Numbered from the stretch's first letter, positions 47,491 to 64,000 are shown. The stretch: 64,000 nt of DNA from an uncultured Candidatus Saccharibacteria bacterium (GCA_964402035.1 CAYOAM010000001.1:96679-160678); one strand, 5' to 3'. The notes: a model not told the origin generated them from the letters alone. A program made the numbers and translations.

Positions 47491-48162
47491 ATGAACCCAC
47501 AGCAAAAAAAAGAAAACATAGGTCGCCACCGTCGTGTGGCGACCTATGTTGTAATGGGGCTTGCATGCATAGTGTATCTAAGCGCAAGTTACCTTTTGTG
47601 GAAACAGCGGGCTCCTCTGGCCGAAACCATCGTACAAGAATCAATACCCACAGCAACAACATCGCTTGGAATATCTTTGCCTCGTGCAATACCAATACGT
47701 CTTCATATACCGAAAATAGGGATTGATGTACCATTTGCGGCTCCGCTTGGTGTAAAAGAGAACGGGGAAGTTGAAGTGCCGAAAACATATGATGAAGTTG
47801 GGTGGTATCAACATGGTCCAACGCCGGGTGAGCGAGGTCCATCGGTCATCTTTGGCCATGTTGATTCGAAAGCAGGACCTGCAGTGTTTTATTCGCTAGG
47901 ACAGGTTGCTCCAGGTGATGAGGTGGTCGTCGATCGCATCGATGGGACGAGTGCAACATTCATCATTCATAAACTGGAACGGGTTCCTCAAGGTTCGTTT
48001 CCTACTGAATCGGTGTACGGAGACGTCGATCAATCTGAATTGCGACTCATAACATGTACTGGTACGTATGATCGCGGAGTATTGCGCTATAGTCACAATC
48101 TTATTGTATACGCAACGCTTGCAGGCAATATTTCTGCAACGACGTCACCGGTTAGTTTCTAG
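47491..48162 (+). CDS. Sortase (class E/F-like transpeptidase)
   Basis: N-terminal TM anchor; His motif VIFGHVD; catalytic LRLITCTG (TLxTC); downstream conserved Arg (RGVLRYS). Starts one nt after the stop of the sorting-signal protein. Confidence 0.8.
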   Translation: MNPQQKKENIGRHRRVATYVVMGLACIVYLSASYLLWKQRAPLAETIVQESIPTATTSLGISLPRAIPIRLHIPKIGIDVPFAAPLGVKENGEVEVPKTYDEVGWYQHGPTPGERGPSVIFGHVDSKAGPAVFYSLGQVAPGDEVVVDRIDGTSATFIIHKLERVPQGSFPTESVYGDVDQSELRLITCTGTYDRGVLRYSHNLIVYATLAGNISATTSPVSF

Positions 48163-48225
48163 TTTCGTACACCTATAGCGCGGGTGGAATCTATGTGTCG
48201 TCAAGGTTATACTATTCATTAATAT

Positions 48226-49419
48226 ATGATGAAGTTTCTTGGAAAGCTGTTTATCCCACAAGAGTCGAATAACTATCAACCTACTATTCTGGAGAAGGCT
48301 GCTGCTCTAGGTATACTCTTGTTGATTTTTCTGAGTTTTACGGTCGTCAATATCCAGTCATTGGTCTTGGTGAGTTCTGATTGGTTTGCTTCGGCTATTC
48401 TCCCGTCTGTGCTTATTGATCTCACCAATGATTCAAGAAAGGACGAAAAGATGTCGTTTTTAACTCGAAGTGCCGTCTTGGACGAAGCGGCATCACTCAA
48501 AGCGCGAGATATGGCAGAGCATGAGTATTTTGCTCATGATAGTCCGCTTGGCATAACACCGTGGTATTGGTTCGAGCGAGCAGGTTATGACTATGTTTAT
48601 GCGGGTGAAAACCTTGCAGTACATTTTACTGATTCTGACCAGGTCGTGGATGCGTGGATGAAGTCGCCCGGGCATCGAGCAAATATTTTGAATGAACATT
48701 ATACCGAAATTGGCATAGGTACTGCGCGTGGTACCTATAAAGGTGCACCCACTATTTTTGTGGTGCAACTTTTTGGGCATCCTATGACTGAAGCGGAGAA
48801 AAGTCGCGTTGCAGCTCTTACAAGAGCACCTAAACAGGCTGCGACCATTGTCGCATCATCTACGACAATCCCCAAAGCTTCTTCAAGCGCATCAGTTCTT
48901 GATGCGCAGGATGAGCAAGCGGTGCCTGTTGAAGAGGTTCAGATAACAACGGTTGCCGGTACAACATCACCAAAGATTACTCGCATGGAGCCAATTCAGG
49001 ATAACGTTCCCACTACTACACAGGCGACTGCAACGAGGCCTGAGCTTGCTAGTGTTAAGGATACATCACCGACGATTTCTCAAACGCAAACGTTCATGAC
49101 ACTTTCTGATGTTGCAACAATCTCCCCGTTCGTCGGGCGCGGCATCTTATCGTCAGACATTGGTGAAACGAGTGGAAATACAGCAGAAATACGCCAAAGT
49201 ACACCGCTCTATGCTGCGGCTACGCGACCACACCTGGTGTTATCAATCATATACTCACTTCTCGCACTCTTTGTCTTTTGCTCGCTAGTACTTTCGATTA
49301 TTGTGGAATGGCGTCGTCAACATCCTACACAACTTATGTATGGTATTGGACTTATGGTTGCTCTCTGGATTGCACTTTACGTGCACTCTGCACTAGTTTC
49401 AGGTGTACTCATTGTCTAA
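48226..49419 (+). CDS. CAP/SCP (PR-1-like) domain membrane protein with Thr/Ser-rich linker and C-terminal TM
   Basis: CAP motifs HEYFAHDSP and GHRANILNEHYTEIGIG. N- and C-terminal TM helices. Confidence 0.7.
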   Translation: MMKFLGKLFIPQESNNYQPTILEKAAALGILLLIFLSFTVVNIQSLVLVSSDWFASAILPSVLIDLTNDSRKDEKMSFLTRSAVLDEAASLKARDMAEHEYFAHDSPLGITPWYWFERAGYDYVYAGENLAVHFTDSDQVVDAWMKSPGHRANILNEHYTEIGIGTARGTYKGAPTIFVVQLFGHPMTEAEKSRVAALTRAPKQAATIVASSTTIPKASSSASVLDAQDEQAVPVEEVQITTVAGTTSPKITRMEPIQDNVPTTTQATATRPELASVKDTSPTISQTQTFMTLSDVATISPFVGRGILSSDIGETSGNTAEIRQSTPLYAAATRPHLVLSIIYSLLALFVFCSLVLSIIVEWRRQHPTQLMYGIGLMVALWIALYVHSALVSGVLIV

Positions 49420-49764
49420 ATTGCACATGACGTCACGTTCTTTAAGACATTTTTTCATATGTCGCATATATTTTCTAACGGTCGCTAATTATGTCCGTAA
49501 GAAACTTTTTGCTTGTGAGATTTGTTTGACAGTTATCAACACATAGTGTCACACAAAAAGTCAATGTCCTTGTACAATAGATATTGGGTCGGTCGAAGTG
49601 GGTACTGGTATTGTCCTTGATTAAAACGGCTGCATCATATTTTGATGCGTATCGAGAACGATATCTCTCCACACACCTTGCTTCGGTCCGGACTACAAAA
49701 CAAAAATATAAAAACAAAAAAATGTTTTGTATGTATAGTTATTTAAAAATAATATTAAAAGTAC

Positions 49765-50919
49765 ATGTACGTTCTACACAACAAAGAAGCGCATAACGCG
49801 CTCCGAGCAATCGCGATGCTCGTTGTGGTAACACTGATGCTCTGGATCGTTGGTGCGAGCCCCTTCTCCCAGAAGGCGGACGCGTCTAACGTGACAAGCT
49901 TCAGTGATACACTCAGTGATTCTGACATGAATGTGGGATCAGACCACACAATCAGATTCACGTTGCCAAACGGAGCGGTAGCAGGTGCATCCATTACTGT
50001 TACATTTCCTGCAGGTTTCAGTCTTGGCACAAATACCGCCACCGGTCTTGACTTCAATGATATGGATCTCAAAGATGACGGAGTAAACCTTACATTGGAC
50101 TCGTCCCCGGCAGGTGCAACATGGGGTGTTGCAACCACAACGTCAACTATTACATTTACGAGCGGTACCGATGTTATTGCATCGAGCTCCGTGGTTCAAA
50201 TATTGGTCGGAACGCATGCATCTTCAGGTTCAACGGGAGATACACGAATCATTAACCCAAACAATGCTGGGTCATATGAAATAAACATTTCGGGTGGTAC
50301 GATTCAGGATTCTGGTGCAACAAACGTAGCAATTCTGGATAACGTTGTTGTAACAGCATCTGTTGATACTAGTTTCACCTTTACGGTGAACGGTATTGCA
50401 ACGAGTAGCGCCGTAAACGGTACGACGACGACTCGCACGGCAACAGCAAGCACAATTCCTTTCGGTCTCTTGACTAACAGCGTCATACAGACACTAGGTC
50501 AGCAGTTGCACGTCTTGACGAACGCCGCACAAGGATTTACGGTAACAGTGTACCAAGACCAAAATCTTCTATCGTCAACAGGAGCCGACATTGATGGTTT
50601 TGCAAACGGAAACTACTTGGATACACCTGGTGCTTGGTCTCATCCAACCAACAGTATTTCGGATGAAAAGACATGGGGCCACTGGGGTCTTACGACGGAG
50701 GACGATGTAGTTGCAGGTGGTGGTGCATTCGGCTCAAATCAATGGATTTCAGCAAGTACGACACCACGCGCCATCTTCCATCACAGCGGTCCTGCCGATG
50801 GTACGACTGCAGACATTGGATCAACAACGGTTGGTTATCAGGTAGAAATAACCTCCCTCCAGGAAGCTGCTGACGACTATACGACGACACTTACATACAT
50901 TGCAACTCCTATTTTCTAG
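49765..50919 (+). CDS. Secreted Thr/Ser-rich surface protein (N-terminal module paralogous to 54234..56117)
   Basis: Signal anchor. NVTSFSDTLSDSDMNVGSDHTIRFTLP aligns with NITTFSDTLTDSAPGEYSNHTIEFQLD in the dockerin protein. Confidence 0.5.
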   Translation: MYVLHNKEAHNALRAIAMLVVVTLMLWIVGASPFSQKADASNVTSFSDTLSDSDMNVGSDHTIRFTLPNGAVAGASITVTFPAGFSLGTNTATGLDFNDMDLKDDGVNLTLDSSPAGATWGVATTTSTITFTSGTDVIASSSVVQILVGTHASSGSTGDTRIINPNNAGSYEINISGGTIQDSGATNVAILDNVVVTASVDTSFTFTVNGIATSSAVNGTTTTRTATASTIPFGLLTNSVIQTLGQQLHVLTNAAQGFTVTVYQDQNLLSSTGADIDGFANGNYLDTPGAWSHPTNSISDEKTWGHWGLTTEDDVVAGGGAFGSNQWISASTTPRAIFHHSGPADGTTADIGSTTVGYQVEITSLQEAADDYTTTLTYIATPIF

Positions 50920-51036
50920 GACACGCGATATGTTCAAAAAAACTCCCAGACGGGGAGTTTTTTTGTTGATTAGTTTTATTTTATTGTACCGCTTAATGTT
51001 ATGATAGATGGGTTATTTATTCGTAGTATTTTATAC

Positions 51037-52101
51037 ATGCGTCGCATAGCATTTTTTTTAATTCTATTTGTCTGTGTTGTTTTTTTTCAGATTCATGATG
51101 TGTATGCACAAGAGTCTGCTGGTGTTGAACTCAAACCTTCGACGATTGAGCGCGGAGCCAATCCAGGAGAAGTTTTTGAAGAGATGCTCACCGTTACAAA
51201 CATCAGCGATCTTGAGCAGACGTATTTTCTTCTGAGTAAAGACATTAGTGGTGTAACGGATACCGGTGCCCCTATTTTTGCTGACGCAGGAGCAGAAGTG
51301 ACGGGTTTTGAATTGAGTACGTGGTTGTCGTACTCAAGTGAAGGCATTGTATTGCCTCCTCGGGCCTCGGTGCAGGTGCCACTAAAGGTGACGGTACCAG
51401 AAAATGCTTCACCAGGTAGTCATTTTGGAGGAATTTTTATAACGGTACAACCACCGAAGTTGCGTGAACTTGGTGCTGGAGTAAGCTACCAAGTAGGAGC
51501 TATTGTAAGTATTCGTATTGCGGGCGATGTCATTGAATCAGCACGCATCAGAGAGTTTTCAACGGAAAAATTGGTCTATAGTGAACCTCGTGTGACATTT
51601 CTTGCACGAGTAGAGAATCCAGGAAATGTACTCATTCGCCCTCGAGGACCGCTTGAAATAAATAACATGTTGGGTAAACGCGCTGGGTATGTCTCCGTAA
51701 ACGATCAGAAGTCAGGTGTCTTTCCTGGTACAACACGGGCGTTCGATATTAAGTGGGAAGGGACAGGACTTGCTTTTGGTCGCTACCAAGCGATCATTGG
51801 GCTTGTCTATGGTGAGTCGGGACGACAATCTACCGTATCGGGTACCGTTTCGTTTTGGATATTACCAATAAAAATAATTTTGCCGGTACTTGGAGTACTG
51901 TCACTCGCTGTACTCGTCGTCTACCTCGGTATCAAGTTGTATATACGCCGTACACTGGATCAATTGTCTACTACGCAGGGTAAGCGCATGGTCGTTCGAC
52001 GCCGCCGCGATGCGCAAATGTCTCGACTTATGGTTACTGCAGTGACCTTACTCATCGTAACCACACTGTTCCTCATCGGTCTATTGTTCTTGTTCGCATA
52101 A
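51037..52101 (+). CDS. Cell-surface protein with Ig-like extracytoplasmic domains and two C-terminal TM segments
   Basis: Signal peptide; beta-rich domains; TM; RRTLDQ...RRRRD; second TM. Confidence 0.45.
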   Translation: MRRIAFFLILFVCVVFFQIHDVYAQESAGVELKPSTIERGANPGEVFEEMLTVTNISDLEQTYFLLSKDISGVTDTGAPIFADAGAEVTGFELSTWLSYSSEGIVLPPRASVQVPLKVTVPENASPGSHFGGIFITVQPPKLRELGAGVSYQVGAIVSIRIAGDVIESARIREFSTEKLVYSEPRVTFLARVENPGNVLIRPRGPLEINNMLGKRAGYVSVNDQKSGVFPGTTRAFDIKWEGTGLAFGRYQAIIGLVYGESGRQSTVSGTVSFWILPIKIILPVLGVLSLAVLVVYLGIKLYIRRTLDQLSTTQGKRMVVRRRRDAQMSRLMVTAVTLLIVTTLFLIGLLFLFA

Positions 52102-52528
52102 ATATCTATTGCTAACAGTATAGCTACGCAGTAGGATTAGGGTATGTACAGCGACTCTCTCTACCATAAATGTTTGCGTGCGTCCGCACTCGTTGTTGCT
52201 TTTCTGCTCACGATGCAGAGTGGGATTATTGTCCCAGAAACGACGTTATTCACCATGCAGGCACGTATGTATATGGCAAACGTGATAGGTATCACCGCCT
52301 CAGTGGTGCCAAATGAAATAAATACTTTAACGGGTGAACTTACAAAGAGGCAAAAAGAGCTTGATGAACGTGAACGTCTTATTGATGCGCGAGTGCGCGA
52401 CAGCGAACTACAGTCATTTCGTTTTTCAGACTATATATTGAGTAGCATACTACTGCTGCTCCTCATACTCATCACAACAAATTATTTCCTTGATTATATG
52501 CGTGCTCGTAAAAATGAGCGGTTAGACT

Positions 52529-53362
52529 ATGCGGCGACATCTTAAAGCTGGTCTTATTGGTCTTTCTGCTGTGATACTCACAACGTTGGGTATCTCTGCG
52601 TCCGATACCCTCGAAGGCGTTTCGGGCTCACTCCTAAGCATGGCATTAAAAAGTGAGGAGATTAGAACAGGGTGCCCGTCTGATATGGCTGAGGTGACGG
52701 TTGGCTCTCGAAGAATATGTGTTGATGTGTTTGAGGAGAGCGCGGCACCGGTGTGTCCGCATCGTGACCCACAAAATGTACAGGAAACAGAACGAAATAT
52801 TGGTGGTGCGGGGTGTATTCCTGAAGCAAAAAAGGACACTAAGCCGTGGAGATTTATAAGTATGAGTCAAGCGCAACGCGCATGTGCGAGCGCTGGTAAG
52901 CGTTTGCCAACCAACGAAGAATGGTATCGTGCGGCGCTCGGTACGCCTACAAATAACGACAGGTTATGCAATCTCCATACACCACAGACGCAAGAGCCTC
53001 GAAATGCTTCGGAAACTGCTTGCAAATCAACCGTCGGGACATACGATATGATTGGCAACGTATGGGAATGGGTTGATGAATCTGTTACGGAGGGTTCGTA
53101 CAGAAACCGTCAAATACCGCAAACAGGGTACGTGTCCGGTGTTGATGCAGACGGTGTTGCATTGCTTTCGGCGACGGTAGAGGACGCACTGTATGGTAAT
53201 GATTATGCATGGTCTACTCCTACAGGGGTACGCGGTATGATACGTGGCGGCTTTTATGGTAGTGGTGAAGACGGTGGTCTCTATACATTGAATGCATCGA
53301 TTGATCTTGCTTTTAGCAGTACTGGTGTCGGTTTTCGCTGTGTACGAGATTACGAAAAATAA
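52529..53362 (+). CDS. Membrane-anchored FGE-sulfatase (SUMF1/DUF323) domain protein
   Basis: N-terminal TM; NVWEWVDES; RGGFYGSG; GFRCVRD: hallmarks of the formylglycine-generating-enzyme fold. Confidence 0.7.
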   Translation: MRRHLKAGLIGLSAVILTTLGISASDTLEGVSGSLLSMALKSEEIRTGCPSDMAEVTVGSRRICVDVFEESAAPVCPHRDPQNVQETERNIGGAGCIPEAKKDTKPWRFISMSQAQRACASAGKRLPTNEEWYRAALGTPTNNDRLCNLHTPQTQEPRNASETACKSTVGTYDMIGNVWEWVDESVTEGSYRNRQIPQTGYVSGVDADGVALLSATVEDALYGNDYAWSTPTGVRGMIRGGFYGSGEDGGLYTLNASIDLAFSSTGVGFRCVRDYEK

Positions 53363-53389
53363 AGCGAGTATCAGCTATACTATAAGGTA

Positions 53390-54232
53390 ATGAAACGCGT
53401 CATGAAAAGTGCGCGGTGGATTTTTGTCACCGTTGGTGTCATTGCTCTTACGAGTATCACGGTAGATGCTACCTTGAGTGGACATTCGCTATCACAATCT
53501 GCTCTAGGAATATTAGCGACATCGGTAACGGAGACCAATACTGGCTGTAGTGATGGTATGGCGCTCATTGGCGGTGATTTTAATGCCGTGTGTGTAGACA
53601 TATATGAGGCGTCGCCAGGCGCAACCTGTCCAAGCAAGGAGGTAGCGAATGTAAACGATACACGTACCAACATAAACACAGGCAGTTGTCTCCCGGCATC
53701 AACAGCCTCTGCAAAACCGTGGACGTATGTGACGTTGAATCAAGCGCAAGAACTCTGTGGTAGGGCAGGTAAGCGACTGTTAAGTAATGCAGAATGGTAC
53801 CGCGCGTCGTTAGGTTCTCCCGATATCGGAGGAGAAGTAGCATGTAATATTAGAACAGATGGCGCTATGCAGACGGGCAAGTACCCACAATGCGTCTCAG
53901 GTATGGGTGCTTTCGATATGATAGGGAACGTATGGGAATGGGTTGATGGGTCGGTAGAAGAAGGAAAGTATCGGGATCGTATGCTACCGACAAGTGGGTA
54001 TGTTATTGAAACCGATGCTGATGGTGTTGTTACGAAGACACAGGGGTCCGCTTCGTCCGATTTTCATGAAGATTATTTCTGGTCTGAAGCTTCTGGTGTG
54101 TATGGTATGCTGCGCGGCGGGTTTTATGGGAGCGGAAGTGATGCAGGGGTGTATAGTCTCCATGCAAAAACAGCAACATCGTTTGCAGGCGCCGCAATCG
54201 GTTTTCGCTGCGCACTTGATTTGAAACGTTAA
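53390..54232 (+). CDS. Membrane-anchored FGE-sulfatase domain protein, tandem paralog
   Basis: NVWEWVDGS; RGGFYGSG; GFRCALD. Same architecture as the upstream gene. Confidence 0.7.
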   Translation: MKRVMKSARWIFVTVGVIALTSITVDATLSGHSLSQSALGILATSVTETNTGCSDGMALIGGDFNAVCVDIYEASPGATCPSKEVANVNDTRTNINTGSCLPASTASAKPWTYVTLNQAQELCGRAGKRLLSNAEWYRASLGSPDIGGEVACNIRTDGAMQTGKYPQCVSGMGAFDMIGNVWEWVDGSVEEGKYRDRMLPTSGYVIETDADGVVTKTQGSASSDFHEDYFWSEASGVYGMLRGGFYGSGSDAGVYSLHAKTATSFAGAAIGFRCALDLKR

Positions 54233-54233
54233 T

Positions 54234-56117
54234 ATGCAGTATTTTGCACTTTTACGCACAACAATGTTCGCACGTATGAGATTTGGTATCTCTACTGCTC
54301 TCGTGTACGGCGTTTTTTTCTTGCTTGGGATCTCTATCATTAGCGGTTTCTTATTTATATACAACAATCAATCACAAGCACGCAATATCACGACCTTTAG
54401 TGATACCTTGACTGATTCGGCGCCGGGTGAGTACTCAAATCATACGATTGAATTTCAGCTGGATGTTGCTGTCCCAGCAGGCGGATATATTCGTATTACA
54501 CCCGAAGATGGAGCCTTTACCATCCCGGCCGTCGATTTTGACATTGATCAAGTTGAACTTTTCGTTGCCCCACCATCCTTGGGCTATACCGTACGAGCCG
54601 CATCAAGTACTGCTGACGCTACGTATGATGGTATTGCTATAACAACCGGTACATCGGGCAATGTGCTCTATACATTGAATGCATCCGCAGGTATTAGTGC
54701 AGGAAGCGACGTGCGAATAAAGATAGGTACACACACCACAAACTCCACTACCACGGATGTTGGTGTGTTGAATCCTGTAGCAACAGGCACGCGTCAAATA
54801 CTCATAGAAGCTGGCGGTGGTGCGAGTGATGCAACAGCTCGAGCTCTTGTTGCAATTATTGATTCAGTTGGTGTTGGCCCAGTGGATACGACAGAAGAGA
54901 TACCGCCTGTGCGCTTCAATGGAGCGCCAACGGGGACGCTGTCAGGAACTGTAACCGGCGTTGAGATTTCCCTTGAAACAGATGAATTTGCACGCTGTAG
55001 ATTCTCTACTGCTTCAGGGACGCCCTTTTTGTCCATGACCGATGAGTTTACCGTGACGGGGTCTATTTTTCATTCCTTGGTGCGAACTGGGTTATCTGCA
55101 GATACTACGTATACATTTTTTGTGCGTTGTATAGATGATGAGAACAACTACAATATCGATGACTACGAGATAACGTTTACCATTCCACCACCTCCCGAAG
55201 GAACCCCAGGTGATGGAGATGATGGGAGTGATGGCGAAGACGATGGTTCAGGTTCTGGTGATGATGGTTCGGGGGATGGTACGACAGGTGGCGATGAAGA
55301 TAGCGATGAAAGTGGTGGTGGAACACGAGGCGGCGGCGGCGGTGGTGGTGGAACAAACAGCGATGATGATGTGTACGAAAGTGGTGACGCAACTGTCATT
55401 ATAAGCGGTTATTCATTTCCAAGTAGCAAGGTGTCGATTTTAGTCGATGGCGATATTGCAGATACAGTGACCGCAAATAGTGCAGGTGTGTTTTCTGTCA
55501 CGCTTGATGCCATAGCGAGGGGTGTCTACAGCTTTGGTGCATACGCTACCGATCGCAGCAATGTTAAATCTTCGACTTTTTCAACGACATTTACGGTTAC
55601 CGGTTCTCGTGTCTCTACACTCTCGAATATTAATCTCATGCCGTCGATATCTGTTGCTCCAAATCCCGTTGATGTCGGAGCGACAGTCACATTTTCTGGC
55701 TATGCAATAGCAAATAGCACCATCACGATTGAAACACAGCAGGACAAGAATGGTACGTCCCCAAAAACGCTTACCGCAACGTCAGATGGTATCGGTAAAT
55801 GGTCTGCAACGCAGTCCACGGCAGGTTTTGCCAAGGATAAGTGGAAGGTGCGCGCTAAGTCCGCGCAAATTGAGGGCAGTATATCTACAAATTTTTCGCA
55901 GTACACATACTATGCTGTGGGTACTGCAGCGGTGCCACCAACGGGTAACAATTCTGACCTAAATCGTGATGGAAAAGTAAATTTGATTGACTTTTCCATC
56001 CTGCTTTTCCATTGGAACACGAATGGTGGTGCGTCTGACCCTCCTGCGGACATCAATCGCGATGGTCGTGTTAGTTTGACTGACTTTTCGATCATGATCT
56101 TCAACTGGACCGGCTAA
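54234..56117 (+). CDS. Surface protein with Ig-like domains, Gly/Asp-rich linker and C-terminal dockerin-like Ca-binding repeat pair
   Basis: C-terminus DLNRDGKVNLIDFSILLFHW and DINRDGRVSLTDFSIMIFNW: two DxNxDGxVxxxD F-hand segments, 31 aa apart. Confidence 0.6.
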   Translation: MQYFALLRTTMFARMRFGISTALVYGVFFLLGISIISGFLFIYNNQSQARNITTFSDTLTDSAPGEYSNHTIEFQLDVAVPAGGYIRITPEDGAFTIPAVDFDIDQVELFVAPPSLGYTVRAASSTADATYDGIAITTGTSGNVLYTLNASAGISAGSDVRIKIGTHTTNSTTTDVGVLNPVATGTRQILIEAGGGASDATARALVAIIDSVGVGPVDTTEEIPPVRFNGAPTGTLSGTVTGVEISLETDEFARCRFSTASGTPFLSMTDEFTVTGSIFHSLVRTGLSADTTYTFFVRCIDDENNYNIDDYEITFTIPPPPEGTPGDGDDGSDGEDDGSGSGDDGSGDGTTGGDEDSDESGGGTRGGGGGGGGTNSDDDVYESGDATVIISGYSFPSSKVSILVDGDIADTVTANSAGVFSVTLDAIARGVYSFGAYATDRSNVKSSTFSTTFTVTGSRVSTLSNINLMPSISVAPNPVDVGATVTFSGYAIANSTITIETQQDKNGTSPKTLTATSDGIGKWSATQSTAGFAKDKWKVRAKSAQIEGSISTNFSQYTYYAVGTAAVPPTGNNSDLNRDGKVNLIDFSILLFHWNTNGGASDPPADINRDGRVSLTDFSIMIFNWTG

Positions 56118-56188
56118 TGATGTGGGTAAATCATGGCAGACGTTATGCGTTTGTATCGTATAATGGTGCTATGTAGTTTCGGCACTAT

Positions 56189-56650
56189 ATGTCCTTTCTT
56201 CAACGTCTAAAAGGTAAAGGGGTCCACGCGCAGAAATTGCAATCTGCCGAGGAGGAAACTGCACTTGATAAAATAGTGCAGCTGGATGTTGATGTATTTC
56301 AGACCGATGACACGATCGTCGTGTATGCACAGGCAGCTGGAGCCGAGCTTGCGGATATTAAGGTTTCAATTGAAGGGGATGCTGATATTGTGCTTATAGA
56401 AGGAAAACGTTTACGTCCTGATCGCATAGCATTTCCTAAAATAAAACCTGAAGGCGCTTTTTTTACGGAAGAGTGTATTTGGGGAGATTTTTACCGACGG
56501 ATCATTTTGCCAGAAGGTGTTGACATAGCACATGCTGAAGCAAAGGTAAAAAATGGTGTTTTGATACTCATTTTGCCACTCCTGCGGTCAGAAGAACGTG
56601 AGAAGGTGCAGCTGCATGTAAAAAATGCCGAAAAAGGTCGCAAATCATAA
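56189..56650 (+). CDS. Hsp20/alpha-crystallin small heat-shock protein
   Basis: ACD motifs: VDVFQTDDTIVVYAQAAG, GEF.RRIILPEGVD, AKVKNGVLILILP. Confidence 0.8.
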   Translation: MSFLQRLKGKGVHAQKLQSAEEETALDKIVQLDVDVFQTDDTIVVYAQAAGAELADIKVSIEGDADIVLIEGKRLRPDRIAFPKIKPEGAFFTEECIWGDFYRRIILPEGVDIAHAEAKVKNGVLILILPLLRSEEREKVQLHVKNAEKGRKS

Positions 56651-56651
56651 T

Positions 56652-58172
56652 ATGGCGTCACGTATTAAGTTAAAACTACTACTGGCAAGCCTCGGCTTCG
56701 TCGTCTTTAGTTTTTTTGGTTTTATGACGACCACGTACGCAGCGGAGGTTCTGATTGCACCAGCGTCAGGAACCTATACTGCAGGGCAGACATTTACAGC
56801 AGCTATACGTGTCAATCCACAGGGCAAAAGTGTCAACGCCGTGGAATCAAAACTTGCATTTGATACTTCAAAACTATCGGTGGTGAGCTTAAGTAAAACA
56901 GGGTCCGTCTTTTCACTATGGACAACAGAACCGACTTTTTCTAATAGCGCAGGTACTATCGAGTTTGGCGGAGGGAGTCCTACACCTTTTACCTCACAGT
57001 CGACATTGGTGACGGTGACCTTCAGGGCTGTTGCTGAAGGTTCAGTTACGGTTGATTTTAAAAATGCATCGGTGCTCGCTGCTGACGGCCTTGGAACAGA
57101 CGTTTTTTCAGCATCAGTGAAGGGTGCGTATATCATTACTGCGGCTGCTACTCCTACGACACCAACTGAAACACCAACAGATGAAACGCCAAAACCTGAG
57201 CAAGAGGAGGAGAACAACGATGCAGCGATAACCTTTGGTGATCCTCCATTGCCACCTGAAGTAGGTTCCAAGGTATTTCTTGATTCGGATCTTTGGTATG
57301 CAACATCAACAGGACTCTTTACCTGGGAGATACCATTTGATGTGAATGGACTGGCGGTTGATGTATCAACGTCTTCGGATTTTGCACCGGTAACCAAAAT
57401 CGATCCTCCTGTGGCGGAGATGCTCTTGACGGAGAAGGAATTGATGGACGGTGTTCAGTACCTAAACGTACAGTTTAAAAACCAAGTGGGTTGGGGAGGC
57501 ATCACGCACCGTCTCATAAAGATAGACACGACTCCTCCTGAGCAATTTACGATAAATGTACGCGCTGGTAATACCCCAAAAACATTTCCGATATTGATTT
57601 TTGAAGCAAAAGACCCAACCTCAGGGGTCCAGAAGTATGAGTTATTTATCGCTGATCGTGAGCCAGTTACCGTCACACCAGATGAGGCACGCTTGGGCTA
57701 TTTGCTCACTGACCTCGTCGATGGCACGTATACCGTCAAGGTTATCGCCCATGACAATGCGGGCAATATCCGAGAATCATCAACACCACTCCTTATTACC
57801 GCAGGCTGGCAGCCGAAGGCTGCCGAAGACAAAGGTTCTGCATTGTGGGCTCTCTTTACATTTACCAACGTATTTATACTTCTACTCATAGCGCTCATTG
57901 TTGCTCTTACGGCATATATTTTCTACGAACGAAAGCAGTTTGGACGCAAAGAAACAAAATTGCGCAAGGAAACCAAGGAAATTCAAGATCAAATGGAGAA
58001 AATATTTTCGGCCCTACGTGACGAGATCCAAGATCAAATTAAGTCTATTACCAAGAAGCCGCGACTCTCAAGAAGTGAACGCGAAGCGGTTGAAAATCTC
58101 GGAAATGCACTCGAAGTATCTGAAACCTTGATCGAAAAAGAGATTGTAGACGTACAAAAAATACTTAAATAG
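56652..58172 (+). CDS. Cohesin-domain surface protein with C-terminal TM and coiled coil
   Basis: Signal anchor. The cohesin-like beta-sandwich pattern is PASGTYTAGQTFTAAIRVNPQGKSVNAVESKLAFDTSKLSVVSLSKTGSVFSLW...GTIEFGGG...TLVTVTFRAVAEGSVTVDF. C-terminal TM plus KQFGRKETKLRKETKEIQDQMEK coil. Confidence 0.55.
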   Translation: MASRIKLKLLLASLGFVVFSFFGFMTTTYAAEVLIAPASGTYTAGQTFTAAIRVNPQGKSVNAVESKLAFDTSKLSVVSLSKTGSVFSLWTTEPTFSNSAGTIEFGGGSPTPFTSQSTLVTVTFRAVAEGSVTVDFKNASVLAADGLGTDVFSASVKGAYIITAAATPTTPTETPTDETPKPEQEEENNDAAITFGDPPLPPEVGSKVFLDSDLWYATSTGLFTWEIPFDVNGLAVDVSTSSDFAPVTKIDPPVAEMLLTEKELMDGVQYLNVQFKNQVGWGGITHRLIKIDTTPPEQFTINVRAGNTPKTFPILIFEAKDPTSGVQKYELFIADREPVTVTPDEARLGYLLTDLVDGTYTVKVIAHDNAGNIRESSTPLLITAGWQPKAAEDKGSALWALFTFTNVFILLLIALIVALTAYIFYERKQFGRKETKLRKETKEIQDQMEKIFSALRDEIQDQIKSITKKPRLSRSEREAVENLGNALEVSETLIEKEIVDVQKILK

Positions 58173-58268: not shown

Positions 58269-61200
58269 GTGGTTTTGACGTATATAGTGCCATACATTAA
58301 TTTTCTCAAACGCCATACCGTGGTTCTGCTACTCTGCGTGAGTGTAGTTGTTTTGGTATGTGTCTCTGTGGTCCATGGTGATGAAACTCCATATTCACTT
58401 CGAACGCTCTACGTCTTTCCAAGCTCCGTCACCACGACGTCGTGGGTTGGAGTCGAGAAGATATATTCGCAAGAATATGACGATCATGCGTTGTACCAAG
58501 ATTTTAGAAAAAGTGGTGCTGCGTATCTTGATACAACACCGGTGTATGTCGTGCCCGCTCCCGTCCCGGAATCAACGACTGATACTGTAGGTACCGATCG
58601 AACGGACGCGGTTTCCGACCCAGAGACATCTTCGACCGATGCTATAGATATTCAGGCTCCATCATCAGATAGCGAAATTAGTGACGCTCCTATTGATGCC
58701 GAGGTCGATGCTCCGGTCGCGCCACCGGTTGCACCCCCATCCACTTCAGAAGATGAGACATCGACGCCCGAACCTTTACCGGAAGCAGCAACAGAACCTG
58801 CCGCTCAAACCGAGTCGAGCGAACCTCCCGCTGTCGAGCCTCTAACAAAAGCTGAAGGGAAGTGGTCCTTGGTATTTGCGCAAGTATTTGAGCGCGCATT
58901 GTCGGTATTTGCAAGCACAGAAACTGAAATTACGTCTTCAACGAGTGATCCTACGCAAGGAAGTGCAAACGTCGCTCTACCGCAAGATGAACCAACGTCA
59001 GATATACCCACAGTAGTGGAGAATGAACTACCTGTGGTGCCGGAGAATGTACCCGACCTGAGTCCAATCGCAACGTCAACATCGGATGTTCAGACGGATG
59101 CTGTTGAGTCAGACAGTCAAACTGCTGAACCGTCGAATGACCTAGCAGAAAGTGTGTCACCGTATTTTTGCGAGGGACAGGAAGGTTGTGCGGTGTCACC
59201 GATCGTATTTGATGGATTTGCATTACCTGAGCTTGGCTCTGGTGAGTTTATTGAAGATGCGCAGTTGCGACTTTCGTTTGCGGGTAAACCAAAGAAAGAT
59301 TTTGCAGGAGAAGATCAGGGACTCGTGATTGAATATATGTTGGACGGAGCGTGGAATGAAGCGGGTACGGTACCACTCAATGAAGAGGTGTCAAATGCTA
59401 TTAATGGTGGATACTATCTTTTTGCATTACCAGCCATCGATAGTGTCGCACGACTCAGTAATCTCCATGTGCGTGTTACCTACTATGGCAATCCAGAAAA
59501 CCTAGAAGGAATCTATGTCGATAGTTTGTGGCTGGAGCTTGGAGTGCAGTCAATAGATGAAGCATCACTTCGTGCCCATGTATTACCAGACGCCCTGGAA
59601 GAGCTAAAAAAACCTGCTGAGCATGAGTTGTTGAGCACTGAGCTTGATTTCACGCTTGATGAATTGCCGAATTTTACGCTCAAATACATCGAGCAGCGTA
59701 ATGCCATCATTCAGTTTTTCCGCAGTATTTTTGCGGACAAAATAGCTGAAGTAACGCACGTGATATTGGTACATGAGGACTTTGGTGATGTGGGTGTAGA
59801 GCCAGAACTCTTTATGACCGATGAAGGCTTGTGGACCATCAAGATTCCTGAAAGTGAACGAGAAAAAATGCGTCCAGGTCTCTACAGTTTGCAGATTGAG
59901 GTTGCAGAAGGCAACGCGCTCTATCGAGACTCATTTGAATTCCAATGGGGACTTTTGGCACTCAATGTAAACAAAAGTGAATATGTAGTCGGGGAAACAG
60001 CGCGTATTTCGCTTGCTGCACTTTCTCAAAATGGAAATACGATTTGTGATGCGAGTCTGTCACTGTATGTTATTGCTCCCGATAATTTTATACAGAAAGT
60101 GCCGGTTGTGGAGTCTGGTCTATGTAAAGGAAACAACGTAGTCGATGTTCCTGACTATGCGGGCACCTTTGTGACATCCTTGCCCGGCACCCATACATTT
60201 TATGTAGAACGACTGGATCCTTCTGGCGATGTTATTGCGCACACCGAAGACACATTTGAGGTGGTTTCTGATGCGCCTATTTCGATTGAACGATCGGGAC
60301 CAACGCGTATTTATCCTGTTGCTCCGTACACCATGTCAGTAACCGTTTCTGCACGAGCAGCGTTTACGGGCACATTTGTAGATATTGCACCACATGACTA
60401 TGAGATTAGTAATACTGATGCGATTATCACTGTTGAGGACGATAAGAAAAAATTGACATGGGACATTGCACTTTTGGCAGGTGAATCAAAAACATTTACG
60501 TACACATTTGATTCCCCAGACATAAGTCCCTATCTCTACATGCTAGGGCCGGCGTCAGTTTTGCTTGATGGAGATATTTCAACAATGTCAGAAGCGACAC
60601 CGACAGATAGAGTGGAGCCGCAGATGACCGAAGAGATTCCAATATTCGATGATGTAGCAAGTACATCTGCACTCGATAGTGTGGTACCGGTGGAGCCACT
60701 CGCTGAACCAACGCCTGTCGAGCAGTCAAATGCTGAAAACGTAGACGTCCCCGTCACTCCTCTTGAGCCGACGTTGTCTGTGCCTACTGAAAGTGAAAAT
60801 ACCGTCGTAGCGCCAAGTGCGGAAACAGATACCACTCCAGAATCTGCTCCACTGGAAGCTGAGGTCATACCCGAAGATGCGAGTTTATCAGAGACCCCGC
60901 CACTTATATTGCCTTCTGATACTGAGACATTGTTCCAAAGTACCTACGTTGAAGAGATGGGAAGTACGACCGGAGCACTCGTCGATGCTGTAGATACCGG
61001 TAGAGATGCTGTGGCTGTTGTTCGGTCATTTACGGAACATCGCCGCTGGCAAATAGCGTCAGATGCCACCGGGAGCATGATTGTACTCTGGACTGACGGC
61101 GCTAGTATTCCATCGGGGTGGACCTGTATTTCATGTAATGCTACGCAGACGGCATTTCAGCGTTTTCCAAAAGGTGGAGCAACGTATGGTACAACGGGTG

Positions 61201-64000
61201 GCGTTTCGACAAGTACGCATACGGCAAGTGGTACCGTAGCCGCTTCCGCAGCGGTTTCATCAGAAAACAGAGCTGGTACCGAGGTAGCAATTAGTTCGCA
61301 TGCCCACACGTACGATCCCGTGATTGTGGCGACTTCAACATTACCTGGATATCGCCAATTGCGACTCATACAAAACAATAGTGCGGGTCAACCGGCATCT
61401 CTTCCTGCAGGTGTTGTCTTGATGTTTGACTCAACGGTACCTTCTGGGTGGGCACGGTACTCGCAACTTGATGATCGTTTCCCCTATGGAGAAAATACTA
61501 TATTGACCGCTGGAACGAGCACACATAGACACAGCGTAATAGGTACTACTACGGGTGCCAGTGGATCAACAGTTGATGGTCGTACCTTAGGTACGCAGGT
61601 AAAAAGTGCTTTAGCTGGTCACCAGCATATCGTCAATGGTACGACGACTGCATCGAGCAATGAACCTCCTTTTATTACGGTAATTTATGGCACAACCACC
61701 GTTGCAACGACGACACCCGTGAATGCCATCACGATGTGGACCGATACACCACCTGCGGGCTGGCTCAATCGTTCAGCGACGGCTGGTGATCCGTTCTATG
61801 ATGTGTACCCTAAAGGTTCTGCTTCCTACGGTTCAACGGGGGGGTCGTTGACACATAGTCATAGTGATCTTGTTATAACTTCCAGCACATCGACCGAAGG
61901 CTCTGTCTCGCGTGTCGGTACTGCTGGAACTCCTGCCACAAGTACACATGATGTAACGATCAGTAATATTGCGTACACAGACCACCAACCGCCATACGTA
62001 ACCGCTATTTTTGCAAAATATTTAGGCGCAAATCCAACATATACGCAACTCGCATACCGATGGTTTGCAAATCTGGCAACATCCACAACACCAACGGATG
62101 CTTGGCCTGCTGGGTCTGAAGACTTGATTACCAATGAACAAATTGGTGCAACAAATACACCGGTAAAGAGCGGTGATGTGGTGAGGTTGCGCATGCAAGT
62201 AGGCGTCTCGGTGTCAACATCGACGGCTGTTGCGTTTAAATTACAATTTGGTTCAACGACCGCAGAATGTAGCGCAATTACAACATGGACTGATGTGGGT
62301 GCTTCAACATCAACGGTGGAATGGCGTGGTTATGACAATGGTTCACTCTCAGATGGCGCCGTACTTTCTTCTTCAACAATACTTGGCACCGATACTCTAG
62401 AGTCCTATGAGGAAAATAATCCCTCGACTACGACTCCAAATGATATTGGTATTGGTGAAGAAGGGGAGTGGGATTTTGTATTAGAGCAAAACGGAGCATA
62501 TGAAGGTTCCACGTACTGTTTCCGTATGGTGAAATCAGATGGCACTGTATTTTTTGCCTATGACAATTATCCAAGTCTATGGACGAATGAGGCACCAGAT
62601 CTGCCGACTCAAGCAGTGCCATTTAATAATGAAAAAGTTTCATCAACGACCCCTCTCTTTGAGTTTTCTGGGGGTGACACGGAAAGTGACACACTCACGT
62701 ATCAGATACAGGTCGATGATGATTATGCTTTTACATCAGTCACAGTAGATAGGAATAGTGTTTCTCATGGATCCCAATTTGAAGACCTGACCTTGAGTTC
62801 AAATAAGGATCCGTTTCCTGCTGGGGATGATATTGAATTTCATCTGACGTCAGCACTAACTAACGGGACCACATATTACTGGCGCGTGCGTGCGAAAGAT
62901 CCTACAGGGTCAAATCAATGGGGAAGCTGGTCGACGATTCGCAGTTTTACCATCGACACGACCGTCACTATTTCAACCTGGCATCAGACCATGGAGGAGC
63001 AATTTGATACTGACACGCTCTATGGAACAGACGCTCTAGCGGCGGATACTGTAGAGCTTATTGTCGGATCAACAACAGGAACAACGACTTCCTCGGCCAT
63101 CACCTTCTCTGAAGGCTCGATCGGTAATGCGTGGGGGTCTCTTTCATTCAATGATACTGAAGCGACCGGTGATATAAAATATCATATTGAGTATTTTGAT
63201 AGTACGACGGCTACCTGGCAGTTGGTGCCTGATGGATCACTCTCGGGAAATGCCGCGGGCTTTGATGCAACACCCGTGAGTCTGTTAGGAGTTGATGTTG
63301 AGACGTACCCCATTATTCGGGTTGCTGCTGATTTTACCAATATTGCTGGAACACCCACATTGTCAGACTGGACCGTCGCATGGGGGTATCGTGTGGAAAC
63401 TCCAACAATAAACTCACTCTTTTCCCATGAAAAAACGGCTACGACGACACCAACATTTGAGTTTTACACAACCGATCCTCAGAATGACGATTTGCAGTAT
63501 GAATTTCAATGGTCAACAACGTCAGCTTTTACGTCATCAACGACGCGTACATCAGGTGTTGATTCAGGGTTTGTCAATATAACGACGGCGACAGATACAT
63601 CATCATTTATTTCTGGGGACATCATCCAGTTTACTATTCAACCAGCTGACGCACTCCAAAACAATCAAACATATTGGTGGCGCGTGCGCGCACGTGATCC
63701 TGCACCAGGAGCCAATGTGTATTCATTTTATACCGACGCTCGGAGTGTTACTGCTTCAACATCGGTCACGGTCTCGACATGGTTTCAGACAACAGTCGAA
63801 CAGTTTAGTGTCAATACCAATGTCGGTATTGGGTCAGTCAGTACCACAACCGCCACCGTTTCTACGACGACTGATGATGCCCTCGTTGCATATGCGGAGG
63901 GCGCTGTTACCACACCTCGCTATCGCACATGGGACGGGACGACATGGTCGGCCGAAGGTACCGCTGTTGATGTGGGAGCTACGATAAACTGGGTCGTGAC
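58269..64000 (+). CDS. Giant cell-surface protein (over 1900 aa within the window), 3'-truncated by the window edge
   Basis: By manual translation, one frame is open from 58233 to the window end (no + ORF with a stop is listed there). Signal anchor VVLLLCVSVVVLVCVSVVHG; Pro/Glu/Thr-rich spacer; beta-rich domains; triplicated His-motif repeat; two FN3-like repeats with YYWRVRAKDP / YWWRVRARDP. Start is ambiguous (GTG 58269, TTG 58275 or GTG 58287). Confidence 0.7.
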   Translation, partial: MVLTYIVPYINFLKRHTVVLLLCVSVVVLVCVSVVHGDETPYSLRTLYVFPSSVTTTSWVGVEKIYSQEYDDHALYQDFRKSGAAYLDTTPVYVVPAPVPESTTDTVGTDRTDAVSDPETSSTDAIDIQAPSSDSEISDAPIDAEVDAPVAPPVAPPSTSEDETSTPEPLPEAATEPAAQTESSEPPAVEPLTKAEGKWSLVFAQVFERALSVFASTETEITSSTSDPTQGSANVALPQDEPTSDIPTVVENELPVVPENVPDLSPIATSTSDVQTDAVESDSQTAEPSNDLAESVSPYFCEGQEGCAVSPIVFDGFALPELGSGEFIEDAQLRLSFAGKPKKDFAGEDQGLVIEYMLDGAWNEAGTVPLNEEVSNAINGGYYLFALPAIDSVARLSNLHVRVTYYGNPENLEGIYVDSLWLELGVQSIDEASLRAHVLPDALEELKKPAEHELLSTELDFTLDELPNFTLKYIEQRNAIIQFFRSIFADKIAEVTHVILVHEDFGDVGVEPELFMTDEGLWTIKIPESEREKMRPGLYSLQIEVAEGNALYRDSFEFQWGLLALNVNKSEYVVGETARISLAALSQNGNTICDASLSLYVIAPDNFIQKVPVVESGLCKGNNVVDVPDYAGTFVTSLPGTHTFYVERLDPSGDVIAHTEDTFEVVSDAPISIERSGPTRIYPVAPYTMSVTVSARAAFTGTFVDIAPHDYEISNTDAIITVEDDKKKLTWDIALLAGESKTFTYTFDSPDISPYLYMLGPASVLLDGDISTMSEATPTDRVEPQMTEEIPIFDDVASTSALDSVVPVEPLAEPTPVEQSNAENVDVPVTPLEPTLSVPTESENTVVAPSAETDTTPESAPLEAEVIPEDASLSETPPLILPSDTETLFQSTYVEEMGSTTGALVDAVDTGRDAVAVVRSFTEHRRWQIASDATGSMIVLWTDGASIPSGWTCISCNATQTAFQRFPKGGATYGTTGGVSTSTHTASGTVAASAAVSSENRAGTEVAISSHAHTYDPVIVATSTLPGYRQLRLIQNNSAGQPASLPAGVVLMFDSTVPSGWARYSQLDDRFPYGENTILTAGTSTHRHSVIGTTTGASGSTVDGRTLGTQVKSALAGHQHIVNGTTTASSNEPPFITVIYGTTTVATTTPVNAITMWTDTPPAGWLNRSATAGDPFYDVYPKGSASYGSTGGSLTHSHSDLVITSSTSTEGSVSRVGTAGTPATSTHDVTISNIAYTDHQPPYVTAIFAKYLGANPTYTQLAYRWFANLATSTTPTDAWPAGSEDLITNEQIGATNTPVKSGDVVRLRMQVGVSVSTSTAVAFKLQFGSTTAECSAITTWTDVGASTSTVEWRGYDNGSLSDGAVLSSSTILGTDTLESYEENNPSTTTPNDIGIGEEGEWDFVLEQNGAYEGSTYCFRMVKSDGTVFFAYDNYPSLWTNEAPDLPTQAVPFNNEKVSSTTPLFEFSGGDTESDTLTYQIQVDDDYAFTSVTVDRNSVSHGSQFEDLTLSSNKDPFPAGDDIEFHLTSALTNGTTYYWRVRAKDPTGSNQWGSWSTIRSFTIDTTVTISTWHQTMEEQFDTDTLYGTDALAADTVELIVGSTTGTTTSSAITFSEGSIGNAWGSLSFNDTEATGDIKYHIEYFDSTTATWQLVPDGSLSGNAAGFDATPVSLLGVDVETYPIIRVAADFTNIAGTPTLSDWTVAWGYRVETPTINSLFSHEKTATTTPTFEFYTTDPQNDDLQYEFQWSTTSAFTSSTTRTSGVDSGFVNITTATDTSSFISGDIIQFTIQPADALQNNQTYWWRVRARDPAPGANVYSFYTDARSVTASTSVTVSTWFQTTVEQFSVNTNVGIGSVSTTTATVSTTTDDALVAYAEGAVTTPRYRTWDGTTWSAEGTAVDVGATINWVV

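What the first reader, a model, noticed from the sequence alone, without database searches (positions are those of the whole stretch)
61080..63760. Giant surface protein carries a triplicated His-motif repeat and FN3-like YWRVRA repeats
Within the over 1900-aa ORF (58269-window end) three consecutive units share (P/A)xGW ... (F/Y)P.G ... YG(T/S)TGG(V/S)xT(S/H)xH ... H(A/Q)H: IPSGWTCISC...YGTTGGVSTSTHT...SSHAHTYDP; VPSGWARYS...HRHSVIG...GHQHIVNG; PPAGWLNRS...YGSTGGSLTHSHSD...STHDV. Each ends with PP(F/Y)(I/V)T(V/A)I(Y/F), reminiscent of phage tail-collar/MdpB-like fibre domains. Two approximately 250-aa repeats follow, with TP(L/T)FEF and YYWRVRAKDP/YWWRVRARDP (FN3-like). This may be a fibre or adhesin used for host attachment, relevant for an episymbiont.
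Basis: seen in the sequence. Interest (0 to 1): 0.5.

Follow-up and report, generated by a model that had tools for sequence, protein, structure and literature searches.

The report
Single-chain triplet of phage fibre-tip units
A giant surface protein of a Patescibacteria-type (CPR) bacterium carries three fused, diverged copies of the histidine-rich tip domain that phage tail fibres normally build from three separate chains, so one chain probably imitates a trimeric, metal-stapled phage receptor-binding knob; the downstream YWRVRA repeats are ordinary FN3-like domains.

Summary

The new point is that the three units form one fixed module. An exhaustive profile search found 5,662 protein clusters. 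Among the best 150, 122 have 3 units, 23 have 6 and one has 9. In 445 of 477 cases a unit's nearest relative in another protein sits at the same position. AlphaFold models the triplet as one compact all-beta body (pLDDT 89, pTM 0.85) with no solved-chain match.

The units link to Collar-type proteins (hhalign 98%) and through them to homotrimeric phage fibres (Pa223 gp60, JUB59 RBP), where HxH pairs bind Fe2+. Twelve histidines per module are 85-97% conserved; the window keeps ten. Phage tail proteins such as phiAsp2 Pas28 and Pas29 carry the same triplet.

Best reading: a single-chain pseudo-trimer of a metal-stapled fibre tip, used as a rigid recognition knob. I could not verify the geometry, metal binding or function.

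The parts
58287..64000 (+). 5' third of a giant (5,621 aa) secreted or N-terminally anchored surface protein. The N-terminus is KRH followed by a hydrophobic stretch ending VHG.
   Evidence: Open frame. Gene call and length on contig SRR7369911_110376. Identical in independent assemblies.
61062..61394 (+). Unit 1 of the triplet (aa 932-1042): IPSGWTCISC ... YGTTGGVSTSTHT ... SSHAHT ... LPGYRQLRLI
   Evidence: Unit HMM score 105.7 bits. Matches the position-1 consensus.
61395..61706 (+). Unit 2 (aa 1043-1146): VPSGWARYS ... TAGTSTHRHS ... GHQHI ... PPFITVIY
   Evidence: Unit HMM score 88.1 bits. Matches the position-2 consensus.
61707..62027 (+). Unit 3 (aa 1147-1253): PPAGWLNRS ... YGSTGGSLTHSHS ... 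STHDV ... PPYVTAIFAK
   Evidence: Unit HMM score 103.2 bits. Matches the position-3 consensus.
61212..61220 (+). Motif A of unit 1 (S-T-H984): degenerate HxH with one His
61299..61307 (+). Motif B of unit 1 (H1011-A-H1013)
61524..61532 (+). Motif A of unit 2 (H1086-R-H1088)
61620..61628 (+). Motif B of unit 2 (H1118-Q-H1120)
61854..61862 (+). Motif A of unit 3 (H1196-S-H1198)
61941..61949 (+). Motif B of unit 3 (S-T-H1227): degenerate HxH with one His
62028..62585 (+). 'YRW...CFRMV' beta-rich domain (aa 1254-1439) of unknown family. It is the most widely shared part of the downstream region among Patescibacteria homologues.
   Evidence: No Pfam hit.
62586..62963 (+). Repeat 1, FN3-like domain (TPLFEF ... 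YYWRVRAKDP)
62964..63383 (+). Repeat 1, second ('X') domain (STWHQT..EQF ... WGSLSFNDTE ... LSDWTVAW); family unknown, poorly modelled
63384..63761 (+). Repeat 2, FN3-like domain (TPTFEF ... YWWRVRARDP)
63762..64000 (+). Repeat 2: first strands of the X domain, then the start of a nested 'WxGxxW' propeller-like insertion that runs past the window end

Best explanation
Nucleotides 61062-62027 encode one structural module made of three diverged copies of a phage tail-fibre tip unit. Each unit has a beta-strand, PxGW, TGG-x3-HxH, a variable loop, a second HxH and a PPY-strand. In phages and in small single-unit proteins this unit is supplied by three identical chains of a homotrimer. Here the three copies are fused in one chain and fold together into a compact pseudo-threefold all-beta body.

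The two HxH motifs of each unit are inferred to meet on the pseudo-axis. They would form two stacked sites of up to six His (five each in this protein) that hold a divalent metal (Fe2+ or Zn2+), as in T4 gp37/gp12 and the JUB59 receptor-binding protein. That would staple the knob. The poorly conserved loops between the two HxH layers would be the exposed, specificity-determining surface.

The module sits about 930 residues from the N-terminal anchor of a 5,621-aa surface protein. It is followed by beta-sandwich, FN3-like, propeller-like and beta-helix-like regions. It most likely acts as a rigid recognition or adhesion knob on a long cell-surface fibre.

Shown here: the repeats, the triplet rule, position-specific conservation, His conservation, the compact confident model, homology to phage fibre tips, and presence of the triplet in phage tail modules. 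Inferred: the pseudo-threefold geometry, metal binding and the adhesive role.
For: 1. Triplet rule. An exhaustive hmmsearch of the unit profile gives 5,662 clusters at E<=1e-3 and 449 at E<=1e-30. Among the best 150, the number of units per protein is 3 (122), 6 (23), 9 (1) or other (4). Tandem runs are 3 (156) and 6 (6). The same holds on viral contigs: 72 of 84 ORFs have 3 units and one has 9.
2. Fixed positions. In 445 of 477 cases a unit's nearest unit in another protein occupies the same position, and each position has its own consensus.
3. One body. The AF2 model of aa 930-1257 has pLDDT 89.1 and pTM 0.85 and is all-beta, with low confidence only in the loops between the two HxH motifs.
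4. Homology to homotrimeric fibre tips. The unit profile reaches Collar-type single-unit proteins and hhalign gives 98%, E 2.7e-13. One of these, P0028, matches Pa223 gp60 (9nxk, E 2.4e-12), the JUB59 RBP (6ov6, 8.4e-10) and 9qgo; each is deposited as 3 identical chains. The unit profile also hits 9qgo directly at E 8e-4.
5. Histidines. The four His columns are 85-97% conserved at every position, 132 of 159 modules keep 11 or 12 of 12, and none loses a whole layer. HxH pairs bind Fe2+ and stabilise the fibre in T4 and JUB59 (PMC9509320, PMC11705849).
6. Matched layers. HxH counts per unit are matched within modules, falling into 2/2/2-type and 4/3-4/3-4-type classes.
7. Phage context. Triplet proteins sit in phage tail-tip modules: tape measure, hub, small fibre-like ORFs, triplet protein, endolysin. 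phiAsp2 Pas28 and Pas29 each carry one triplet and belong to PHROG tail families.
8. Surface context in the window: sortase, SdrD_B, CAP, cohesin and dockerin proteins.
Against: - I could not see the model's coordinates, so neither the threefold arrangement nor the His geometry was measured.
- The hhalign link to Collar-type proteins covers only the first 52 columns.
- Pfam Collar and PHROGs do not hit the window protein directly.
- His losses are not correlated between units of the same layer.
- The matching of HxH counts is mostly a between-clade effect; within each source group rho is 0.1-0.5.
- Each unit has four His of its own and could in principle form an intra-unit site.
- The module lies in the middle of the protein, not at a tip.
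Confidence: 0.62

Rival explanations
1. Beads on a string. The three units are independent small domains, each chelating its own metal with its four His (an intra-unit His4 site). Their number is a matter of spacing rather than co-folding.
For: Each unit has two HxH motifs of its own. His losses in different units are statistically independent. No fold match to a trimeric fibre was obtained.
Against: The strict 3/6/9 rule with almost no 4 or 5. Position-specific signatures are conserved across hundreds of proteins. pTM 0.85 for the whole 328-aa stretch. The single-unit relatives belong to fibres solved as homotrimers.
Confidence: 0.15
2. The whole giant protein trimerises like a phage fibre. 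Each unit pairs with the same unit of two other chains, giving three successive homotrimeric knobs.
For: All solved relatives are homotrimers (bioRxiv 10.1101/2025.06.11.659172). Phage proteins with the triplet sit where trimeric fibres are encoded.
Against: Homotrimerisation would put no constraint on unit number, yet the number is a multiple of three. Positions 1, 2 and 3 have diverged in a fixed way. AF2 packs the three units of one chain together with high confidence. The other domains of the protein (FN3-like, propeller-like) are typical of monomers.
Confidence: 0.13
3. The His-rich units are primarily a metal-capture device (iron or zinc scavenging, or a catalytic metallo-site) rather than a structural or recognition knob.
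For: 12 conserved His per module. Phage HxH fibres have been proposed as iron ligands (PMC11705849).
Against: In solved relatives the metal is buried and structural (PMC9509320). No hydrolase or transporter family hit. No metal-uptake genes among the neighbours scanned at 44.5-58.2 kb.
Confidence: 0.1

Closest known systems
Homotrimeric phage tail-fibre tips with HxH metal sites: T4 gp37 and gp12 tips, JUB59 receptor-binding protein (PDB 6OV6), Pa223 gp60 (PDB 9NXK), 9QGO 'tail fiber protein'
   Same: Same order of motifs within a unit: hydrophobic strand, PxGW, Gly-rich turn, HxH, second HxH, PPY-strand at the end. Sequence homology is shown transitively and directly to 9qgo at E 8e-4. The conserved His pairs bind Fe2+ in these fibres (PMC9509320).
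   Different: Those are three identical chains. Here three diverged copies lie in one chain with fixed positional identities. The units are shorter (~105 aa) and the Collar 'CDG..TPDLR' segment is reduced. There is no significant chain-level fold match. The module is embedded in a cellular 5,621-aa protein, not in a virion.
Pfam PF07484 Collar / MdpB ('microcystin-dependent protein') family
   Same: The N-terminal strand plus PxGW and the C-terminal PPY-strand. Distant single-unit relatives of the window units pass or approach the Collar threshold.
   Different: The window units and 44 of 45 triplet proteins give no Collar hit. In the relatives the Collar match covers only profile positions 1-22.
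phrog_5795 'tail protein', e.g. Actinoplanes phage phiAsp2 Pas29 (annotated 'possible receptor recognizing protein; contains HXHY motifs') and Pas28
   Same: Exactly one triplet of the same unit per protein, so the same single-chain architecture. These are the nearest described proteins that share the triplication.
   Different: The phage units are longer (~133 aa) with 3-4 HxH layers instead of 2. They are encoded in tail modules. The window protein does not hit any PHROG at E<=0.1 and has no tblastn match among 50,697 deposited phages.
FN3-like N-terminal domain of alpha-L-rhamnosidases (Pfam PF25788 Ig_Rha78A_N) and classical fibronectin type III domains
   Different: Below the Pfam gathering score (23-24 bits against 27.4). 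Here the domain is paired with an uncharacterised ~140-aa domain in a 266-aa super-repeat.

Membership tests
Pfam PF07484 Collar (phage tail collar / MdpB) | Match to the PF07484 profile at or above the gathering score (24 bits) | tested here: not met
   No hit at E<=10 for each unit or for the whole module. None in 45 triplet proteins at E<=0.01.
Pfam PF07484 Collar (phage tail collar / MdpB) | Profile-level homology to proteins that are members | tested here: met
   The unit profile finds P0026 (Collar 25.8 bits, above the gathering score) at E 1.1e-4 in 5.8e9 sequences. hhalign unit profile against Collar-type proteins: 98%, E 2.7e-13, 52 columns.
Trimeric HxH metal-binding fibre tip (T4 gp37/gp12, JUB59 RBP, Pa223 gp60) | Sequence relationship to solved members | tested here: met
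   Direct: 9qgo_A E 8e-4. Transitive through P0028: 9nxk 2.4e-12, 6ov6 8.4e-10.
Trimeric HxH metal-binding fibre tip (T4 gp37/gp12, JUB59 RBP, Pa223 gp60) | Conserved HxH pairs | tested here: met
   Four His columns per unit are 85-97% conserved. The window keeps 10 of 12.
Trimeric HxH metal-binding fibre tip (T4 gp37/gp12, JUB59 RBP, Pa223 gp60) | Built from three identical chains (homotrimer) | tested here: not met
   Three diverged units in one chain, with fixed positional identity.
Trimeric HxH metal-binding fibre tip (T4 gp37/gp12, JUB59 RBP, Pa223 gp60) | Six His around a metal ion on the threefold axis | not testable with these tools
Trimeric HxH metal-binding fibre tip (T4 gp37/gp12, JUB59 RBP, Pa223 gp60) | Fold similarity to solved structures | tested here: inconclusive
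phrog_5795 phage tail protein (phiAsp2 Pas29-like) | Match to the PHROG profile | tested here: not met
   The window protein hits 0 PHROG families at E<=0.1. Viral triplet proteins and P0003 do match.
phrog_5795 phage tail protein (phiAsp2 Pas29-like) | One triplet of HxH units in a single chain | tested here: met
   Pas29 units at 373-511, 516-646 and 653-787; Pas28 also has three. The window has three.
phrog_5795 phage tail protein (phiAsp2 Pas29-like) | Encoded in a phage tail gene module | tested here: not met
   The window neighbours are sortase, SdrD_B, CAP, FGE-sulfatase, dockerin, HSP20 and cohesin proteins. There are no phage genes in the flank scanned (44.5-58.2 kb).
Fibronectin type III-like domain (PF25788 Ig_Rha78A_N / fn3) | Pfam gathering score | tested here: not met
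   21.7-24.4 bits against a cut-off of 27.4. Close homologues have PF25788 on record.
Fibronectin type III-like domain (PF25788 Ig_Rha78A_N / fn3) | FN3 beta-sandwich fold | tested here: met

The most novel reading that the evidence does not exclude
The triplet is a true single-chain pseudo-trimer. A homotrimeric, metal-stapled viral receptor-binding tip was converted by tandem triplication into a monomeric module. It then spread among phage tail proteins and the giant surface proteins of Patescibacteria (and some Bacteroidota- and Chloroflexota-type proteins). It would be an uncurated domain family of several thousand clusters in which the three positions have specialised. It would be a natural template for monomeric, engineerable receptor-binding knobs, and a marker of exchange between CPR cells and their phages.
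Probability: 0.5. Interest if true: 0.68.

Novelty: new variant of a known kind. Interest (0 to 1): 0.55.

Why it matters
Phage fibre tips of the gp12/gp37 type are obligate, intertwined homotrimers, which makes them hard to express and engineer. A natural single-chain version with the three positions free to diverge would explain how cells can insert such a knob into a monomeric multi-domain surface protein. It would give an asymmetric binding surface and offer a scaffold for designed binders.

For CPR/Patescibacteria biology, it identifies one concrete, phage-related candidate recognition element within giant surface proteins that are otherwise almost unannotated. It also defines a large family (thousands of clusters) that Pfam and NCBIfam do not cover.

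The FN3-like repeats themselves are ordinary.

Tried and rejected
- Self-BLAST of the whole protein printed no off-diagonal rows (I assumed the full-length self-hit masks them). I replaced it with Smith-Waterman on segments with shuffles.
- The word-indexed homologue search with the module found only 3 proteins and badly understated the family. The exhaustive profile search corrected this.
- The His co-loss test asked whether the three copies of one motif are lost together. Losses are rare, scattered and not associated (one nominal p of 0.02 among the six same-layer unit pairs), so it is uninformative.
- The test of matched HxH counts and unit lengths is positive overall (rho ~0.7-0.78) but weak within each source group, so it is confounded by phylogeny.
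- Model coordinates are not exposed, so symmetry and His distances could not be measured.
- The search for related loci with the 45-sequence alignment failed for lack of conserved stretches. The 4-sequence alignment worked but used narrow patterns, so the genome survey (7 loci) is not a census.
- tblastn of the window module against 50,697 deposited phages found no match.
- Literature searches for a single-chain or pseudo-trimeric fibre tip, for phiAsp2/HXHY, and for giant Patescibacteria surface proteins found no prior description. This is absence in an open-access library only.
- I considered and rejected a sequencing artefact or split ORF.
- I considered and rejected a phage or prophage origin for the window locus itself, because of the cellular surface-protein neighbourhood.

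Full report
**1. The observation**

The frame starting at 58269 is open for 1,910 codons to the end of the window.

On a 53-kb Logan contig the gene is called from the GTG at window 58287 and encodes 5,621 aa, with DUF2341 on record. Assemblies from three other runs are identical over 5,714 nt with no stop. A fourth has one mismatch in 1,823 nt.

The three His-motif units are aa 932-1042, 1043-1146 and 1147-1253. They align pairwise with z = 8.2, 13.2 and 9.6 against 300 composition-preserving shuffles, and no shuffle reached the real score. The two large repeats have a 266-aa period and z = 28.8.

Small corrections apply. Only units 2 and 3 end PP(F/Y)xT. Unit 1 ends LPGYRQLRLI. Two of the six HxH motifs are degenerate (TSTH, STH), so the window has 10 of the 12 canonical histidines.

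**2. The triplet is one fixed module**

No Pfam, NCBIfam or PHROG model hits the window units. The PDB sequence search with the module finds nothing, and the word-indexed homologue search found only three proteins. Each of those three again has exactly three units.

I aligned the 12 units (A1) and ran the profile exhaustively against 1.84 billion cluster representatives. It found 5,662 proteins at E<=1e-3, 1,676 at E<=1e-10 and 449 at E<=1e-30.

Re-scanning the best 150 locally gave this distribution of near-complete units per protein:

| Units per protein | Proteins |
|---|---|
| 3 | 122 |
| 6 | 23 |
| 9 | 1 |
| other | 4 |

Tandem runs are 3 (156 runs) or 6 (6 runs). Ranking by summed score favours multi-unit proteins, but that cannot explain the near absence of 4 and 5.

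In 159 triplets, a unit's nearest unit in another protein lies at the same position in 445 of 477 cases. Each position has its own consensus; for example, position 1 ends lPpYR.LkvI and positions 2 and 3 end PPYi.Vi. The triplication is therefore old and fixed, not a recent local expansion.

**3. Structure**

I modelled aa 930-1257 with a 45-sequence alignment of triplet proteins (A3). AlphaFold2 gives mean pLDDT 89.1 and pTM 0.85. The model is all-beta, and low confidence is confined to the loops between the two HxH motifs of each unit. A pTM this high for 328 residues argues that the units pack in a defined way rather than as loose beads.

The pseudo-threefold arrangement is therefore an inference.

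**4. What the unit is related to**

The unit profile reaches small proteins of 110-240 aa with a single unit. Many look like CPR proteins, with an N-terminal TM segment, a stalk and then one unit; one is labelled Nealsonbacteria.

At the weak end are typical phage-fibre C-termini of the form 'GMIMMWSGSI.SIPSGW.LCNG..TPDLR..F..G....GGTGG....H.H....NLPPYYALAYIMK'. One of these passes Pfam Collar (P0026, 25.8 bits) and one is named microcystin-dependent protein.

hhalign between the unit alignment and four such proteins gives 98% probability and E 2.7e-13, but over only the first 52 columns.

One of these proteins, P0028, matches three solved structures by phmmer, each deposited as three identical chains:
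- Pa223 gp60 (9nxk), E 2.4e-12
- the JUB59 receptor-binding protein (6ov6), E 8.4e-10
- 9qgo, E 5e-7

The unit profile itself hits 9qgo at E 8e-4, with the HxH...PPYY end also aligned.

According to the literature, Pa223 gp60 is a trimer whose tip resembles the T4 gp37 tip (bioRxiv 10.1101/2025.06.11.659172). 6OV6 resembles the T4 gp10 and gp12 tips (PMC10097599). HxH pairs bind Fe2+ and stabilise the fibre in T4 and JUB59 (PMC9509320), with six His per ion (PMC11705849).

**5. Histidines**

The four His columns of the unit are 85-97% conserved at each of the three positions. They rank with W19, G46 and P96 as the most conserved columns.

Of 159 modules, 76 have all 12 His and 56 have 11. None loses all three HxH copies of a layer.

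His losses are not correlated between units, so that test does not discriminate between models. HxH counts per unit are matched within modules, with 2/2/2-type and 4/3-4/3-4-type classes and rho ~0.76. Within each source group the correlation is weak, so the signal is largely phylogenetic.

**6. Phages carry the same triplet**

A scan of IMG/VR found 76 loci. Of 84 ORFs with hits, 72 have three units and one has nine. Many are ~425-aa proteins that consist of a single triplet, with longer units (~133 aa) and extra HxH layers.

These proteins match phrog_5795 'tail protein' and, more weakly, 'tail collar fiber' and 'tail fiber' PHROGs. In locus L016 the gene order is tape measure, minor tail/hub, small fibre-like ORFs, triplet protein, endolysin.

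The only deposited phage found is Actinoplanes phage phiAsp2. Its Pas29 is annotated 'possible receptor recognizing protein; contains HXHY motifs', and both Pas28 and Pas29 carry one triplet.

The window module has no tblastn match in deposited phages.

**7. Distribution and context**

Close relatives of the window module lie in Saccharimonadales, Paceibacteria and other Patescibacteria genomes. There is also one in a Dehalococcoidales MAG. All of these have 3 or 6 units. Some triplet proteins carry T9SS sorting domains.

The window neighbourhood at 44.5-58.2 kb encodes an SdrD_B/DUF642 protein, a sortase, a CAP protein, two FGE-sulfatase-domain proteins, a dockerin protein, HSP20 and a cohesin protein. 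It is a cellular surface-protein island with no phage genes in that flank.

**8. The downstream repeats**

Each 266-aa repeat consists of an FN3-like domain followed by an uncharacterised domain of ~140 aa.

The FN3 call rests on three results:
- sub-threshold Ig_Rha78A_N and Pur_ac_phosph_N hits
- PF25788 on record for close homologues

The second domain is poorly modelled.

**9. Interpretation**

The best-supported reading is a single-chain pseudo-trimer of a metal-stapled phage fibre-tip unit, serving as a rigid recognition knob in a giant surface fibre (confidence about 0.6).

The rivals are:
- three independent metal-binding beads (0.15)
- homotrimerisation of the whole protein (0.13)
- a metal-capture role (0.1)

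The unit belongs to a known superfamily. The fixed triplicated single-chain form is not covered by Pfam or NCBIfam and was not found in the searchable literature. I therefore rate it a new variant of a known kind, of moderate interest. The FN3-like repeats are ordinary.

Noticed in passing
window 63762-64000 and beyond (L001 17156 onward; P0146 aa ~1850-2650): The second copy of the ~140-aa 'X' domain is split just after its first strands by a ~600-aa region of 'WNGSSW'-type repeats. That region looks propeller-like and gives a weak Kelch_1 hit. The X domain resumes afterwards ('...YWQEMSWTDTE...SDWTITW'). Homologues P0051 and P0057 have other insertions at the same spot, so this looks like an insertion hot-spot or nested domain.
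   Followed up: partly
window 62028-62585: A ~185-aa 'YRW...RLR...FKLQ...YEE.N.S...P..I..G..GEWD...YCFRMV' domain has no Pfam hit. It is the most widely shared part of the downstream region: most of the 46 homologues cover only this ~28% of the query, and some carry peptidase S8 or T9SS domains.
   Followed up: no
window 44488-58172: A surface-protein island lies upstream: a 1,000-aa SdrD_B/DUF642 protein, a sortase, a CAP-domain protein, two adjacent FGE-sulfatase-domain proteins, a dockerin-bearing 627-aa protein and a cohesin-like 515-aa protein separated by an HSP20. The cohesin and dockerin proteins could be an interacting pair.
   Followed up: no
L026 4962-11063 (IMG/VR contig 3300010429_001930) and L005 3-4151 (Saccharimonadales MAG): A viral ORF of 2,034 aa carries three complete triplets (9 units). 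A Saccharimonadales ORF carries two (6 units). Several viral loci (L027, L030, L037, L046, L067, L070) have two adjacent triplet-bearing genes, as phiAsp2 has Pas28 and Pas29.
   Followed up: partly
alignment A3 (one member): One triplet protein matches Pfam YmaF (PF12788) at E 4.8e-7. From memory, YmaF is an uncharacterised His-motif family, so it may be another curated relative of the HxH core.
   Followed up: no
P0006, P0008, P0009, P0012: Small proteins of 190-230 aa have an N-terminal TM segment with '..VVAWT(E/G)P', a short 'GNVGIG...KL.V.G...' stalk and a single HxH unit ending 'LPPYL.VVWCKK'. One is labelled Candidatus Nealsonbacteria. They may be the homotrimeric cellular counterpart of the triplet.
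   Followed up: no
window 1-64000: GC skew is positive in every 2-kb bin across the whole window and most long ORFs are on the + strand. No tRNA genes were found.
   Followed up: no
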